Below, in pieces: positions 2,851 through 12,257 of a DNA stretch of 35,307 nucleotides (positions within the stretch are counted from its first letter, which is position 1; every line of letters begins with the position of its first letter). The position numbers and the translations under genes are program-made. This DNA comes from Sphaeroforma arctica JP610 (lineage: Eukaryota): positions 87,907 through 123,213 of the forward strand of contig NW_014040487.1 in assembly GCF_001186125.1 (NCBI RefSeq). The letters run 5' to 3'. Below the pieces are notes generated by a model that was not told the DNA's origin, searched no databases, and saw nothing but the letters and a program-made list of their open reading frames with translations.

Positions 2851-3252
2851 ACCTATTCGACATATTATAGTATGTCGCCAAGGCGTCTTTTGGACTGCAC
2901 TTGTACCCTGGTAGAGAAAAGTATCTACCTCTCTATCCACATAGATCGGCTCACATTGTATCATTGAGATCAACTGTGGTAGCCATTTATCTGAGTGTCA
3001 TAGGGGACAACACAACGTGATGGTAGCATCTTGAATATTTACATAATTTAGCAACTGTGGTATTAATAGCCATGGAGGATTTGCCCAGGCATTCTCGTGA
3101 GACAAGTCTATCTGGAATCCGTCTCCTTCCGGATGTTCCAGTGTCCGGTACCTCGGCAGTTGCACATTATGATGAGCGGCAAACATATCTATGGTATGTG
3201 GTCCATATATGTTGTCAGCGATCTTAAACCACCTAGGATTGGCCATCCAATC
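2851..3252 (-). other. N6-adenine DNA methyltransferase-like domain within pol, element 1
   Basis: DW..NPRWF...GPHTIDMFA (3178-3189)...GDGF...NAWANPPW (3070-3081)...CPL*..KW; in frame directly after the RNase H terminal motif; one stop at 2998-3000. Confidence 0.85.
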
Positions 3253-5133
3253 TGTAGCTAGTAACTCCCTGACCATCTTGTTAAAGTCTGGTATGAAGCG
3301 AGACAACATGTCGGGTAAGTGATTGTGAATACCCGGTATGTGTGTTATGCCGAAAGAAATTTCGCGATCGTGTCATGTCACCGACTGACTAACTATGAGT
3401 TAGGTTTCATGTCCTTTAGGTGTTGCAATGAATTCTGATCATTCATTTAGCACGTTAATGTGCGTGCCATATAGATAGTTCTTAAAATGAGTGAGTGCAG
3501 TAATAATAGCCAAAAGCTCTTGTTGCATGGTTGGGTAATTGATCTGAGACGAATTCATAGCCCTGTTAAAGAACTGTAAATATCTTGGTTTCCCATCAAT
3601 CATTTGATACAAGACGCCGCCGAGTGCCATGTCGGACGCGTCTGTTGCTACCATGAATGGAATACCATCCTTTGGTGGCTGGACTACTGGTGCCTGCTGA
3701 ACCACTGTTTTGAGCTGCTTAAATGCGTCATCACAGTCTTTGGTCCACAGTGCGCCTAGTTTGCCTTTATGACATCTCAGATGTCCAAAGGGCTTTAAAT
3801 AACTTACCAGTTGTGGTACTCCGTCAGACAAAAAGTTGACGAATCCGCACATGCTGTTGACATCCTTACCCGTGGTAGGAGTTCTCCAGTCTAGCAAGTG
3901 GTCGACCTTCCCGGGATCGATCATGATTCCATCCCCGGATACTCGGTAACCCAACTGCTGAATCTCGTTAACACCGAAGTGACATTTCTTACTGTTGACC
4001 TTAAAGTTGTGCTTGTTGAGTCTGTCTAGAACCTCTCGCACAACCATTTCGTGCTCCTCTTTGGTTTTGGTGAATACCACAATGTCATCAATGTATACTT
4101 GTACATTGTCCATGTCCCTAAACAAGCCTTGCATAATTTGTTGAAAGAACGCAGGTAACATGTGTAACCCAAAGGGGGCACCTTTGAACGAATATTGAAA
4201 GGTGAAATACTTCCGGTGTGGTTTGTAGATCTTCATCTGGTGGTAGCTCTGCTTCAGGTCGATAGTGGAGAATATCTTAGCTCCCTCCATGCGCCTGAGT
4301 AGTTCGTTTATCCTTGGTAAGTGAAAATTGTGTGTCGGTATCAAAGCGTTAATTGGGCTCATATCCAAACACACCCGAGCTTTCTTCGGCGTCCCGTCAC
4401 AGTTGAATTGGTCGACGGCTAAAAGCGCTAGGTTGACGGAAGTCGGCTCGTAGTTGACTGCGATCACTCCGTCATCCAACCATGCTTGAACCTGTTCTCG
4501 TACGACCTGCTCATGACGCCATGCAACATAGTTACGTGTAGGACACTTCAGCTTCGAGAAATCTACTCTCGTCAGGTCCAGACAAACGTATTCGTTATTG
4601 AACGTGAACTTAGCCCAGTCAGTGATCTGAATCTTGTCGTTCTCAGAAATCAAGTCCTTGAGTTTCTCTGTGAAGTGGGGGATCATCTCCTTCACAGTCT
4701 TCGAAGGTTTATATACCGGTTTCAACAAGATGTCGTCCGACTGATCCTTCTGTGGTTCAATGTTAGTAGGTAAGCCTGTAATTGTGATATTTAATGACAA
4801 TAAATCACTTATACCTACTATGAGATCATAGTCTGGTGAAGTGTTACATATGACTGCCTTAGTAACTATAGTACATTGGTCTGTTAGTGTAAACCTAAGA
4901 TCGATTGCCATTTCTCTGCAAGTGAACTCTCTTTCATCAGCTAGTTTCAACATACTTGGCTCTGACTTACGAGTTACGTCTGTTATTTTACAGAATCTAG
5001 AGGATATACATGAAATTTGCGAGCCCGGATCCAGCAACGCTTATATTTCATGTCCGTTAACTCGTATATCTAGGATTACACGCTCGTCTTGAGGTGCGTC
5101 CTTTTGTCTTAGTGACAAGACCCGGTATGTTTG

Positions 5134-7909
5134 TCACCTTACTTCAACTTTTGGGTTCACCTTGCAGGTATGCTTGTGGTAACCTCCAGTCCCGGTGCAG
5201 TCGGCACACTTCTCGATAAAGTGCTTACACTTTTCTGCGTGCCTTCCATTCCATCTGCCATTCGGCTCATGTTGGGTCATTCGCCAATTACAATCAGTCT
5301 CACTACAGTTCTTGACCTCCCTTTGCCTGGGCTTAGGGTTGCCTGCCCGGCCCATTTATGTTAGTCTGGATACCCTTAGGGATGACATTGTTCTTGTGGC
5401 TTTCAGAACCATTTGTATTTTTGTTCTTATTGCCACCCTTGTCACCCCCTTTGTTTACCTTCTGACCTCCATTAGTGGACTGAGAGTCTCGACCATTGCC
5501 TGATCCCCCGGTAAGATTGCCGCCGACCTTCCTCTGAGCATTAGTGACTTTCACCACGGAACTAGGGCGTTTGGTAAACGTCTGATCCGCTCTCGAGTAA
5601 AATTCAGCCCAGGTTAAGTCCGCTAGCTTCATTATGCCGTAGGTGGGTCCTTCAATGGAGATCTCTCGTACCTTGTCCGGGTAAGATTGATACATATCAG
5701 CGTACAGAATCTCTCGATCTCTCCTATGTAGGTTTGACCAAAAGGTTGTCTGCACCCATAGTACACATATAGATAGTTTGTCAGGTGACATCTCCTGTGT
5801 CTGTGCCCGTGACATGCATGTGTCCAACTCCAATAAGTAGTAGGACACTGGTACAAGCAATTCCGGTCGAGGGTCCGTCGAAAATAAGTGGACGATCATC
5901 TCACTCTGCTCTTTCCACGTTTTCAGCTTAGTGATCGCTTGTTTCGCCTTCTCTAACTTGTTATACTTGTAAGAGGACGGCTTAAAGCTCTGCTGCGCTG
6001 CTTCGAACCATAAGTTCTTCCGCAGATTGGCTGTAAGTATAATCTGTCCAAACTCTTTCAAAGACCTAGATAACAACGCCAGACTGCTAGTATCGATAGA
6101 ATCCTTCCGGTCCTTTCGATCAGATCTGTATGTGGTTGGTAGTTTACTTATGTCCTTTACAAACTGCTTGCCTTCCACAGCCTTATCGGCCTGAATCACT
6201 CTTAGTTCTGAATCAAACTTAGTCTGGAGGTGCGTAGCAATTGTCATATAAAGACTAGCGGCATCAATCCTACCTAGATCCATCGCCTCGAGTGAAGCTG
6301 CCTCAGCCTTGTTCATTTGAACAGTGAATTCATCAATTTTCAGATCACTACTAGAGTGATCTGATCCCTTCTTTTCTAATTGCATCTGACCATGCAGTCA
6401 GTTGTCTGTCTCATCCTTTGATCCATCGACCTGTTCAATGTGAATGAACGCTTCTGATGGGACAGCATCTTTTGTCGTCGTTGGGATAGTCGCTGGTGGC
6501 GAACTGTCTCCCGATGACGACAAAGATTTTCTAGCTTCCACCTGATCAGGTTTAGGCTCTTCGGTCGGTTTGTCCTTCGGAAATACCTCTGGGGCACTCT
6601 GTGAATTTCCTTCCGGTGGTGGATTTGGATTAGGCTCCTGTTCAGATGCCATTCGCGACATTGCTGTTGCATCCAATCCAGGAGAAGATTGAGCTTCGGA
6701 TGATGAAGATCGGATTATGTTTGCCCCTCCATTGTCTGACAACATTTCAAACGCCAATATGACTTTATAGAATGCCAAATGGTTTGATATCAAGTCGGGA
6801 ATGTCTCCAAGAAGATCCCGAATTACGTACCAAATTAAGTGTGCAAAACTTACATCTCTCCTAGTTCTGAATACCTTCTGTAGTATCTTTTGAAACTGAC
6901 GGAAAAGTTTGCGTGCTTGCTTACCTTTGTCAGTTTTCATTGATATTAGCCGATTGTAAAAATCAGAATCCCTAAATAAATCGTACCCAAACTTTCTTAC
7001 CGCTGCATTCATCACATACCTCGGTGAAATGGTACCCTCCGGTTTGGTCTTCATTACGTGCGGAAAGTTCGTTCCATACGTGTTTCGAAACACCCATGCC
7101 CGGTTGGCCTTCTGACGGATCAACTCTCGTTAACCCTCCTCCTGGATATCAATTTGAGTCTGGTATGGATGGCCCAGATCAAAGTTCTGTCGCCAAGCCG
7201 GTCGGAGTGGTGTTTTGGGTAAGCTCAGAAATAGTGAATCCAACCTGGTGTCCGAATCGTCGTCCTGATGGCGAAGTGTATGGTCCACATCATCCGGACC
7301 TATATCCACGAAACGCAGTTGTTCCTCCGTTACGTTGATTTGGGGTTGATCCAACAGTGTTTGTGCTATTGGCACATCCTCCGAGTCTTCCTCCCCGGAT
7401 TCACCATGACCTTGATCCTTCGCTGCGGCTTGCTTTTTCTTCCGCTACTTAGTAGGTATCAATTTATGTACCATTGGTTGGTAGTTTTTCAGGAAGGATC
7501 TCCTATCCCTTGCTATCATATGATAAGTAGGATCTTGCCAACATGCTTTGCGCGTGTCCACTGGTGGGGATGATACATTTGATTCCAGTGCATGTCACAC
7601 TTCCTCTGAAGTTGAATTTTCAGAGGATTGCGTTTTCTCGGCTTTTCCCTTTCGAGATTTCGCCTTCTTCGCTGGTGGCTTCTGTGGCTCCGTAGTCATA
7701 TTACCTCCGGATATACCTACACCCGAGTCAACTAACTTCTTACGTTTCCGTTTAGTCAGAGTTGGTACCGGTTGTGCCGGCGTGATCTCAGTTGCTTCAG
7801 CTTCCACTGATAGTGCCGAAGGTGTTTTCTGCTTTTCATCGCCTACAGTAAACCCTTTCACGCTTATAGCCTTAGCTACATTCGCAGCCTTATTTTTCCC
7901 TTTCGTCAT
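5134..7909 (-). pseudogene. gag: Long gag-position ORF of element 1 (~920 codons), disrupted
   Basis: ORF pieces 7909-7595, 7375-7130, 7123-6398 and 6385-5333 lie in one frame, separated only by in-frame stops (7595, 7445, 7130, 6398); a frameshift leads to the Cys/His fingers at 5355-5134. Called gag by position and zinc fingers only. Confidence 0.75.
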
Positions 7910-11464: not shown

Positions 11465-11855
11465 TTGTGGTCTCTAAGTCTGTAGTGTTTCCAGACTCCT
11501 GTCCTTCTTTCGCATGAGTGTCATAAGTGCGCTCGTGTGCGTTTGATACACCTGACTTATTTAATAGTCGCATTATATGTGTATATGCTTCAGGATTATC
11601 TTTCATCAATCCCTTTAAAAATAGTGCTTGAAAGACTTCGGGCTTAGACTTTATGTTATAAAACAGAGTCCTAGATAGAGACTGACGCTTCTTAACTGTA
11701 GTGTCATTAGTAGATTGTATTTCTTGTGCACAGACTTCAAGTGCTGTGTTGCCTTTGAAGTGATTAACGCTCAATTAAGTAGTGAGTGGAATCTCTGATT
11801 CTTTGATCTTGTTAAGAAAGGTCTCAGAAGGGGTCCATTTGGTTGTTCCAATGAG

Positions 11856-12257
11856 ACCTATACGACATATTATAGTATGTCTCCAGGGCGTCTTCTGGAC
11901 GGCTCGTGTACCCTGATATAGGAAAGTATCTACTTCCCTATCTAAATATATTGGCTCGCATTGTATCATGATTTTCAATTTATTGAGCCATGGATCTTTA
12001 CTCCGTAATGGGCAACGCAACGTGATGATAGCTTTATGTATATGAACATAATTTAATAGCTGGGCAATTAACTGCCATGGTGGATTAGCCCACGCATTAT
12101 GATTGGAGAGGTCTATTCGAAAGGCGTCTCCCAAAGGATGATTTAAAGTCCTGTAATTCGATAGTTGTGCATTATGATGTGCAGCAAACATATCTATGGT
12201 ATGTGGCCCAAATATCTTTTGAGCCAGTTCAAACCACCTGGGATTACATTTCCAGTC
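11856..12257 (-). other. N6-adenine DNA methyltransferase-like domain within pol, element 2
   Basis: GPHTIDMFA (12183-12194)...GDAF...NAWANPPW (12075-12086); no internal stop; same length as and colinear with 2851-3252. Confidence 0.87.

What the first reader, a model, noticed from the sequence alone, without database searches (positions are those of the whole stretch)
2851..12257. Gypsy/chromovirus retrotransposon lineage encoding a Dam-like N6-adenine DNA methyltransferase between RNase H and a DDE integrase (domains at 2851-3252 and 11856-12257)
Seen: in both elements the RNase H end (H.PG...HLPDMLSR) runs in frame into a 134-codon domain with DW..NPRWF, GPHTIDMFAAHHN, GD(G/A)F and NAWANPPW, then a linker, then an HHCC/DDE integrase. 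By hand alignment the first 103 residues are about 70% identical (72/103) with no indels between the two families, whereas their LTRs and the following linker barely align, which implies past purifying selection. Known: D-x-F-A is a SAM-binding motif I and [DNS]PP[YFW] is catalytic motif IV of amino-methyltransferases; this domain style directly after RNase H is characteristic of DIRS1-type tyrosine-recombinase retrotransposons and phage Dam proteins, not of standard Ty3/Gypsy pol. Here RT, RNase H, integrase, direct TG..CA LTRs and PPT are all Gypsy-type. Inference: an LTR retrotransposon packaging its own 6mA (or 4mC) writer, perhaps marking cDNA or new insertions to evade silencing or mimic active host chromatin. 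I am not aware of this architecture being described, but cannot search to confirm.
Basis: partly seen in the sequence, partly recalled or inferred. Interest (0 to 1): 0.92.

Follow-up and report, generated by a model that had tools for sequence, protein, structure and literature searches.

The report
Ichthyosporean Gypsy retrotransposons carrying adenine methyltransferase
Two broken copies of a Gypsy-type jumping gene, in what is likely an ichthyosporean protist, each carry an adenine-methyltransferase-type domain between RNase H and integrase that likely marks the element's own new copies, a real design that a 2026 preprint has already described for this lineage.

Summary
Two decayed Ty3/Gypsy LTR elements on the minus strand carry a Dam-family (PF05869) domain between RNase H and integrase. 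The domain is under purifying selection (dN/dS about 0.12), models confidently as an amino-methyltransferase fold, and keeps its NPPW motif. Relatives encode the same order in one ORF, so this is not a nested insertion. RT groups with Gypsy, not DIRS.

Novelty is refuted. A May 2026 preprint (bioRxiv 10.64898/2026.05.21.726589) defines an 'Ichthyosporean DAM-LTR lineage'. These elements group with Abeoforma whisleri and Sphaeroforma arctica proteins, and the host TYW1 gene is closest to Creolimax. This scan also noted the design in other genomes (12 notes, at least 3 genomes).

Additions not in the preprint's main text:
(1) the lineage has a divergent C-terminal chromodomain, though the preprint says it lacks one;
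(2) a conserved in-frame UGA-C between gag and pol suggests readthrough;
(3) the nearest solved fold is the RNA cap methyltransferase PCIF1, not T4 Dam, so the substrate is open;
(4) two Copia-type polyproteins also carry the domain.

The likeliest mechanism is in-particle 6mA marking of the element's own cDNA (about 45%); it is untested.

The parts
7943..8482 (-). Element 1, 5' LTR (TGTAAAA...TTTTACA), 540 bp
   Evidence: 94.5% identical to the 3' LTR over 489 aligned bases (K2P 0.057)
5137..7921 (-). Element 1 ORF1/gag, about 930 codons, broken by 4 stops and a frameshift; ends in a Cys/His zinc-finger region
   Evidence: translation; no Pfam hit for the three ORF1 pieces scanned; gag assignment inferred from position and zinc finger
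5134..5136 (-). Element 1 in-frame TGA (context TGA CAA) between gag and protease; likely programmed readthrough
   Evidence: no variant listed at 5131-5136 in contigs of 4 runs, while the stop at 5041-5043 differs in about 99% of depth
3253..5133 (-). Element 1 protease (LLDPG), RT (YIDD) and RNase H, with stops
   Evidence: Pfam RVT_1 E 1.7e-24, RT_RNaseH_2 E 4.2e-29; translation
2851..3252 (-). Element 1 Dam/DIRS-type N6-adenine methyltransferase domain (DMFA, NPPW), with one in-frame stop at 2998-3000
1190..2442 (-). Element 1 integrase (HHCC, core, SH3-like) and divergent chromodomain (about 1200-1363); frameshifted near 2100 and broken by stops
   Evidence: tblastn with P0001; translation; weak chromodomain-HMM hit, E 0.031
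857..865 (-). Element 1 polypurine tract
1..853 (-). Element 1, 3' LTR, cut by the window start; holds a 353-bp insertion at 377-729
14601..15370 (-). Element 2, 5' LTR
   Evidence: 96.2% identical to the 3' LTR over 761 aligned bases (K2P 0.039); loose contig ends at 14601 in run X18
13987..14478 (-). Element 2 gag remnant, mostly deleted, with the zinc finger kept
13984..13986 (-). Element 2 in-frame TGA (context TGA CGG) at the same place as in element 1
12258..13983 (-). Element 2 protease remnant, RT and RNase H (frameshifts near 13620 and 13265, stop at 12399-12401)
   Evidence: Pfam; tblastn
11856..12257 (-). Element 2 Dam/DIRS-type methyltransferase domain, open and intact (DMFA, NPPW)
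   Evidence: model of 11796-12287 with mean pLDDT 91.5; fold matches
10390..11443 (-). Element 2 integrase: HHCC, D-D-E core (IIDL, SDNG, NEPR), SH3-like C-terminal domain
   Evidence: Pfam rve E 2.7e-8
10190..10350 (-). Element 2 divergent chromodomain fold, aromatic cage mostly lost
   Evidence: no Pfam hit
9850..9858 (-). Element 2 polypurine tract
9070..9846 (-). Element 2, 3' LTR (TGTAA...TTACA)

Best explanation
These are two decayed copies, from two related families, of a Ty3/Gypsy LTR retrotransposon whose pol encodes a Dam/DIRS-type methyltransferase domain between RNase H and integrase, and that domain likely adds N6-methyladenine to the element's own cDNA inside the particle so that new insertions would inherit the host's 'active' 6mA mark.

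Shown here: the anatomy, the fold, intact motifs, purifying selection, and grouping with ichthyosporean DAM-LTR proteins (identity as that lineage about 0.93).

Inferred steps: (1) Pol is made by occasional readthrough of the UGA at the end of gag. (2) The methyltransferase travels with RT and integrase in the particle, either released by the protease or still fused. (3) It has no target-recognition domain of its own, so it depends on being held on the RT product (RNA-DNA hybrid, single-stranded or new double-stranded cDNA). (4) The host AMT1 then maintains 6mA at ApT, keeping the insertion transcribed. (5) The divergent chromodomain would help tether integrase to chromatin. The confidence below is for this mechanism, not for the identity.
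For: Architecture: P0001 (1376 aa) has RT-RH-Dam-H2C2-rve in one ORF. 11 of 35 relatives scanned (35 of the 150 listed) have RT/RNase H, Dam and an integrase domain in this order.

Selection, element 1 versus 2: MTase pN/pS 0.24 (95% bootstrap 0.16-0.33), JC-corrected dN/dS 0.12; RT/RNase H 0.22; linker 0.66.

Catalysis kept: NPP[WFY] in 132 of 166 related domains and in 12 of 16 clade rows checked. The model has mean pLDDT 91.5 and matches N6-adenine methyltransferases. 82 of 90 aligned relatives hit Pfam Dam at E<=0.1.

Placement: RT falls in an 18-row all-Dam clade (SH-aLRT 98) with Abeoforma proteins, on the integrase-bearing side, apart from the 45 DIRS-type rows. The MTase clade has support 100/99, and S. 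arctica SARC_09892 falls in the equivalent clade.

Preprint main text: DAM-LTR insertions in A. whisleri and S. arctica are more often 6mA-methylated and more expressed than other LTR elements, and 9 of 13 DAM-LTR species have AMT1.
Against: No activity has been shown. The preprint's expression of these domains in dam-deficient E. coli gave no 6mA increase. The 6mA on copies could be laid by host AMT1 alone because the copies are transcribed.

The best structural match is the RNA cap methyltransferase PCIF1, followed by rRNA methyltransferases; T4 Dam ranks 10th. Iyer et al. judged DIRS1 MTase domains likely inactive. One intact close relative (P0173) has CPPW in place of NPPW.

No ApT or GATC depletion in the pol regions (ApT observed/expected 1.04 and 1.01), which is uninformative rather than supportive.
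Confidence: 0.45

Rival explanations
1. The domain works like PCIF1/CAPAM and methylates RNA: the cap-adjacent or an internal adenosine of the element's own genomic RNA, or the RNA strand of the hybrid. This would favour its stability, translation or packaging, and the 6mA on genomic copies would be a host-made consequence of transcription.
For: The top 6 Foldseek hits (all those with E<=0.001) are PCIF1 chains, best E 3.1e-5. VIA ranks PCIF1 first (Z 10.1, rmsd 3.4, 141 aligned), rRNA adenine methyltransferases next (Z 8.0-8.8) and T4 Dam at Z 8.0. 22 of 90 relatives hit Pfam PF12237 (PCIF1) at E<=0.1. The profile aligns DlFAs..n and anPPf to PCIF1's ECFASPLN and ANPPF, though only at E 0.98. 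Iyer et al. place DIRS1 MTases in the PCIF1 clade. This reading would explain the negative DNA assay in E. coli.
Against: PCIF1 needs a large helical domain for cap and RNA binding, and no counterpart was seen in this 134-residue domain. By sequence profile the family is nearer to phage Dam (82 of 90 versus 22 of 90). No solved PF05869 structure appeared among the hits, so the fold ranking may reflect what has been solved. Shared fold does not show substrate. The link with AMT1-bearing hosts points to DNA 6mA.
Confidence: 0.22
2. The domain is kept for a non-catalytic job, such as nucleic-acid or SAM binding, a scaffold between RNase H and integrase, or a decoy for host factors.
For: Negative E. 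coli assay; Iyer et al.'s view of DIRS MTases; CPPW in P0173 and NPSF in P0018. Unchecked notes of this scan report conserved domains with the catalytic motif lost in other genomes.
Against: The catalytic NPP[WFY] is kept in 132 of 166 domains. D, F and A of motif I and PP of motif IV are among the 8 columns at least 90% invariant in a 90-row alignment.
Confidence: 0.2
3. The domain writes N4-methylcytosine, or methylates host chromatin in trans rather than the element's own intermediate.
For: Established knowledge (recalled): amino-methyltransferases with this fold include N4C enzymes. A protein released from the polyprotein could act in trans.
Against: N4C enzymes typically carry SPPY (recalled), while this family has NPP[WF]. 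Readthrough would make little Pol. The preprint finds 6mA enriched on the elements themselves.
Confidence: 0.08
4. Artefact: a DIRS fragment nested in a Gypsy element, or a neutral relic.
For: Both window copies are broken, and element 1's domain has a stop.
Against: Same junction in two families and in single-ORF relatives; dN/dS 0.12; the RT and MTase trees recover the same clade.
Confidence: 0.02

Closest known systems
Ichthyosporean DAM-LTR lineage (Fernandez-Moreno et al., bioRxiv 10.64898/2026.05.21.726589; Pirum gemmata, Abeoforma whisleri, Sphaeroforma arctica). Whole main text read; figures and supplements not seen.
   Same: Ty3/Gypsy organisation with a PF05869 domain; NPP-aromatic motif; groups with A. 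whisleri and S. arctica proteins; ichthyosporean-like host.
   Different: The preprint says the lineage lacks chromodomains; here relatives have a recognisable one and the window copies a decayed one. Its main text does not mention gag-pol readthrough and has 0 occurrences of 'PCIF1', 'copia' or 'primer'. Whether these two exact families are in its supplementary tables could not be seen.
MT domain of DIRS1-type tyrosine-recombinase retrotransposons (Iyer et al., PMC4738411, passages read)
   Same: Same domain family, same position directly after RNase H; most of the 150 nearest relatives are RT-RH-MT proteins without integrase.
   Different: Here a DDE integrase follows, the LTRs are direct TG..CA repeats with a PPT, and RT is Gypsy-type.
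PCIF1/CAPAM cap-specific m6Am methyltransferase (PDB 6irw, 6irx; PMC8287941, passages read)
   Same: Nearest solved fold; motif I and IV spacing alike.
   Different: 12-16% identity; no WW or helical domain; embedded in a retrotransposon polyprotein.
Tf1/Tj1-type Gypsy elements (Tj1 of Schizosaccharomyces japonicus, PMC4600332, passages read) and Tcn1-like chromoviruses (PMC6317226, passages read)
   Same: In-frame TGA between gag and a pol lacking its own start (needed for Tj1 activity); no tRNA-type TGG primer site after the 5' LTR; many RT neighbours carry Pfam Chromo.
   Different: No methyltransferase is described for them in the passages read; self-priming is not demonstrated here; Tj1 and Tf1 were not in my tree.
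Phage Dam family PF05869 and T4 Dam
   Same: Profile match at E about 1e-5; T4 Dam Z 8.0, rmsd 2.6, 104 aligned.
   Different: Score is below Pfam's cut-off; there is no target-recognition domain; the protein is part of a polyprotein.

Membership tests
Ty3/Gypsy LTR retrotransposon | Direct LTRs with TG..CA ends and a PPT | tested here: met
   (element 2's 5' LTR starts TT; element 1's 3' LTR is cut by the window)
Ty3/Gypsy LTR retrotransposon | Order PR-RT-RH-IN with a DDE integrase | tested here: met
Ty3/Gypsy LTR retrotransposon | RT groups with Ty3/Gypsy | tested here: met
   best solved relative of P0001 is Ty3-G, E 3.4e-71; quick ML tree without bootstrap, 164 of 201 rows
Ty3/Gypsy LTR retrotransposon | Target-site duplication | tested here: inconclusive
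   element 2 flanks read TCTA and CCTA (4 bp, one mismatch); element 1's far flank is outside the window
Ichthyosporean DAM-LTR lineage | PF05869-type domain within Gypsy pol | tested here: met
Ichthyosporean DAM-LTR lineage | DAM domain forms a clade with Abeoforma, Sphaeroforma and Pirum sequences | tested here: met
   100/99 with A. whisleri P0002-P0004; S. arctica P0024 in the equivalent clade, SH-aLRT 88; no Pirum sequence was identified
Ichthyosporean DAM-LTR lineage | Ichthyosporean host | tested here: met
   host TYW1 is 491 of 643 aligned residues (76%) identical to Creolimax fragrantissima, against 51-61% for 6 other top hits tested; species not established
Ichthyosporean DAM-LTR lineage | Described as lacking a chromodomain (a descriptive trait in the preprint, based on HMMER at E 1e-5) | tested here: inconclusive
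   No Pfam Chromo hit, as in the preprint, but profile and fold evidence show a divergent one. This corrects the description rather than excluding membership.
Ichthyosporean DAM-LTR lineage | 6mA enrichment and expression of copies | not testable with these tools
   no methylation data available here
DIRS1-type element | Tyrosine recombinase and inverted or split repeats | tested here: not met
   DDE integrase and direct LTRs; no recombinase hit in the element ORFs scanned
N6-adenine amino-methyltransferase | Rossmann-like fold with motif I and [DNSH]PP[YFW] | tested here: met
N6-adenine amino-methyltransferase | Methyl transfer to DNA adenine | not testable with these tools
   the preprint's E. 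coli assay was negative
Chromovirus | Chromodomain at the integrase C-terminus | tested here: met
   A profile from 12 clade rows finds Pfam-Chromo-bearing C-termini of other Gypsy proteins (best E 1.5e-11), element 1 only at E 0.031 and element 2 not at all. The element 2 model matches Oxpecker chromodomain (Z 7.4, rmsd 2.4, 57 aligned) and SUV39H1 (Z 7.0, rmsd 1.8, 54 aligned). Z is under 8, and the alignment used for the model held clearer relatives.
Chromovirus | Intact aromatic cage for methyl-lysine | tested here: not met
   the conserved W and TWE of relatives are replaced in element 2 and P0001; cage positions recalled
Chromovirus | RT falls in a named chromovirus clade (Tf1/Sushi, Tcn1) | tested here: inconclusive
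   neighbours carry Chromo, but no named reference element was in the tree
Tf1/Tj1 self-priming group | Primer site complementary to the 5' end of the transcript | tested here: inconclusive
   element 2: 9-nt complement 119 nt before the LTR end, P 0.14 against shuffles; element 1's best match (10 nt, P 0.02) lies 496 nt away, near the U3 start

The most novel reading that the evidence does not exclude
The 'Dam' domain of these elements is a minimal PCIF1-like enzyme that methylates the element's own RNA or RNA-DNA hybrid inside the particle, which would make it a retrotransposon-encoded epitranscriptomic writer. The ichthyosporean lineage would then be a readthrough-expressed chromovirus that couples this writer to a divergent chromatin reader, and the same module has also entered Ty1/Copia elements.
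Probability: 0.2. Interest if true: 0.75.

Novelty: already known. Interest (0 to 1): 0.3.

Why it matters
If the domain is active, a retrotransposon writes its host's 'active gene' mark onto its own copies, the reverse of the usual silencing story. That idea is already in the 2026 preprint, so the finding itself is a confirmation. What remains valuable is the open substrate question. The first enzyme test was negative, and the closeness to PCIF1 names concrete alternative substrates (capped RNA, hybrid, single-stranded DNA). Element 2's open domain and the intact relatives P0001 and P0173 (NPPW versus CPPW) are natural test material. The overlooked chromodomain and the Copia cases would modestly revise the preprint's picture of how many captures there were.

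Tried and rejected
No genome is held for this window, so copy number and intact genomic copies could not be counted. Contigs of 4 runs laid on 1-15500 show many variants (58,840 laid in X1, most at 90-99% identity). This fits multi-copy families but is not a copy number.

Expression: no RNA holder listed; the runs marked 'RNA?' are guesses and were not used as evidence.

Self-priming: inconclusive. No tRNA genes in the window.

Donor of the MTase: not resolved. (166 rows, quick) nests the clade among DIRS-type rows; (77 rows, bootstrap not settled) puts all 28 LTR-borne domains plus one DIRS-type row on one branch (97/88). The AU test did not finish. All rows were chosen by similarity to the query, so the sample is biased.

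Sequence search of PDB with the domain profile gave PCIF1 only at E 0.67-0.98. Foldseek gave no hit at E<=0.001 for the C-terminal model, whose top rows were tandem Tudor domains. Pfam did not detect the chromodomain. ESM Atlas returned unnamed, mostly eukaryotic clusters (0.94-0.96) and one with 14% Dam; it added nothing.

Dinucleotide and GATC counts show no methylation footprint. P0173 looked Dam-less in precomputed Pfam but has the domain. Earlier scan notes by sequence and by place: none.

Rejected: nested insertion, DIRS element, neutral relic.

Full report
1. Observation. The window's first 15.4 kb hold two minus-strand LTR retrotransposons side by side, not nested. Element 1 has LTRs at 7943-8482 and <1-853. 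Element 2 has LTRs at 14601-15370 and 9070-9846. Each LTR pair is 94-96% identical, while the two families' LTRs give no blastn match to each other at E 1e-5. In both, RNase H runs in frame into a 134-codon domain at the stated coordinates, then a linker and an HHCC/DDE integrase. The 72 of 103 identity without indels is exact. Pfam Dam (PF05869) hits both domains at E 1.4e-5 to 4.3e-5, below the curated cut-off. Both copies are dead: element 1's domain has a stop at 2998-3000, and both elements have other stops and frameshifts.

2. It is a real, selected architecture. P0001 (1376 aa, 72% identical over the domain) carries RT, RNase H, Dam, zinc-binding and integrase core domains in one ORF; P0173 aligns to it end to end with the same domain. 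A full HMMER scan found 632 relatives at E<=0.001, of which 150 were listed. I scanned 35 of them, and 11 have RT/RNase H, Dam and an integrase domain in that order. Between elements 1 and 2 the domain has pN/pS 0.24 (95% bootstrap 0.16-0.33; JC dN/dS 0.12; the stop codon excluded), like RT/RNase H (0.22) and unlike the linker (0.66). In an RT tree (164 of 201 matching rows; short matches and near-identical plant copies left out; quick method, SH-aLRT only, with a long-branch warning) both elements lie in an 18-row clade whose members all carry the domain (98). That clade is on the integrase-bearing side, apart from 45 RT-RH-MT proteins without integrase, which I call DIRS-type from their architecture. 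The best solved relative of P0001 is Ty3-G.

3. Lineage and host. The nearest named proteins are Abeoforma whisleri P0002-P0004. The MTase tree gives the 16-row clade 100/99 (77 rows), and S. arctica SARC_09892 falls in the equivalent clade of the larger tree. The neighbouring host gene TYW1 is 76% identical to Creolimax fragrantissima, against 51-61% for six other top hits. The host is therefore an ichthyosporean; Sphaeroforma is my guess and is not shown.

4. Prior art. The first paper search returned Fernandez-Moreno et al., bioRxiv 10.64898/2026.05.21.726589, which I read in full main text (figures and supplements not seen). It claims the first identification of DAM domains in non-DIRS LTR elements and defines an Ichthyosporean DAM-LTR lineage in Pirum, Abeoforma and S. 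arctica. It reports more 6mA and more expression on these copies, a link with AMT1 (9 of 13 species), and a negative E. coli assay, and it proposes methylation of RNA-DNA intermediates followed by AMT1 maintenance. This scan's notes list 12 similar findings in at least 3 other genomes; these are unchecked and are not evidence.

5. Fold and substrate. The model (90-row alignment) has mean pLDDT 91.5 and pTM 0.87. All six Foldseek hits at E<=0.001 are PCIF1/CAPAM. VIA ranks PCIF1 first (Z 10.1), then rRNA adenine methyltransferases (Z 8.0-8.8), T4 Dam (8.0) and M.TaqI (7.7). By Pfam profile, 82 of 90 aligned rows hit Dam and 22 of 90 hit the PCIF1 family at E<=0.1. Iyer et al. (PMC4738411, passages) had already put DIRS1 MTases in the PCIF1 clade and judged them inactive; the preprint's main text does not mention PCIF1. 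Against inactivity, NPP[WFY] is kept in 132 of 166 domains. The domain is only the catalytic core; PCIF1 needs a helical domain for its substrate (PMC8287941, passages). An enzyme without its own target-recognition part would depend on being held on its substrate by RT or integrase, which would explain the E. coli result (inference). I put in-particle DNA 6mA at 0.45, RNA methylation at 0.22, a non-catalytic role at 0.2, 4mC or action in trans at 0.08, and artefact at 0.02.

6. Additions. (a) Chromodomain. The preprint says this lineage lacks one, and Pfam finds none at E<=0.01 in the clade proteins scanned. But the clade's C-termini read KxLDHR..G..YxVxW..TWE, and a profile built from 12 clade rows finds Pfam-Chromo-bearing C-termini of other Gypsy proteins (best E 1.5e-11). 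The window's copies are more decayed: element 1 scores E 0.031 and element 2 is not detected. The element 2 model nonetheless shows an SH3-like domain followed by a domain matching chromodomains (Z 7.0-7.4, rmsd 1.8-2.4). These Z values are under the tool's caution line, and the alignment included clearer relatives. The aromatic cage looks lost.

(b) Gag-pol junction. Both families have an in-frame TGA-C nine codons after the last zinc-finger cysteine, followed by xxYRVxSL; element 1 has no Met before the protease active site. In contigs of four runs no variant is listed at 5131-5136, whereas the next stop (5041-5043) differs in about 99% of depth. This fits programmed readthrough as in Tj1, where the stop is required (PMC4600332 and PMC5911963, passages). 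Splicing or another route is not excluded.

(c) Priming. Neither element has a TGG-type primer site after the 5' LTR; self-priming is possible but was not significant (background from PMC6317226, passages).

(d) Copia. P0131 is a single 2098-aa Copia-type ORF with the domain between gag and protease, and P0143 has it just before an RVT_2 domain. I found no mention in the preprint's main text, in one paper search (3 papers listed, none on this by title or abstract start) or in scan notes. Both are single unnamed contigs, so nested insertion is not excluded.

7. Verdict. A correct and sharp reading of raw sequence, but of an already described lineage. Interest 0.3. The open and testable part is what the enzyme methylates.

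Noticed in passing
proteins P0131 (2098 aa) and P0143 (522 aa): Ty1/Copia-type (RVT_2) polyproteins with a Dam/DIRS-type domain and NPPW/NPPF, at two different positions (between gag and protease; just before RT). Not mentioned in the preprint's main text.
   Followed up: partly
proteins P0029 and P0054: Polyproteins ordered protease - Exo_endo_phos - Dam - RT - RNase H - integrase, with a very long-branched RT.
   Followed up: no
protein P0144 (Olpidium bornovanus KAG5459425.1): dUTPase next to a Dam-like domain in a retroelement-like protein of an early-diverging fungus.
   Followed up: no
window 5134-5136 and 13984-13986: Conserved in-frame UGA-C between gag and pol in both families; likely stop-codon readthrough.
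   Followed up: yes
window 2851-3252 versus 11856-12257: Synonymous identity between the two families is higher in the MTase (55 of 93 identical codons among identical residues) than in RT/RNase H (68 of 163); Fisher p 0.009, post hoc. May reflect a later exchange of this segment between families, or extra constraint on the RNA.
   Followed up: partly
protein P0173: Intact close relative whose catalytic motif reads CPPW instead of NPPW; a natural comparison for activity tests.
   Followed up: partly
window 377-729: 353-bp insertion in element 1's 3' LTR, apparently flanked by a GTAC duplication; no other copy in the window.
   Followed up: no
window 8483-9069: Spacer between the elements holding a 186-bp piece of the element 2 LTR at 8663-8848 (about 95% identical).
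   Followed up: no
window 5137-7921: Element 1's ORF1 is unusually long for a Gypsy gag (about 930 codons), with a lysine-rich N-terminus and no Pfam match in the pieces scanned; its zinc finger ends C-x2-C-x6-H-x3-C.
   Followed up: no
window about 18960-24250 (+): Intron-containing host TYW1 (wyosine synthesis) gene, used for host placement.
   Followed up: yes
window 32238-33440 (+): 400-codon open frame with a DUF305 match (E 2.1e-10), a possible signal peptide and an acidic repeat tail.
   Followed up: no
window 17075-17358: Four degenerate 70-bp tandem repeats; the rest of the window is rich in (TA)n/(CA)n microsatellites next to N gaps.
   Followed up: no
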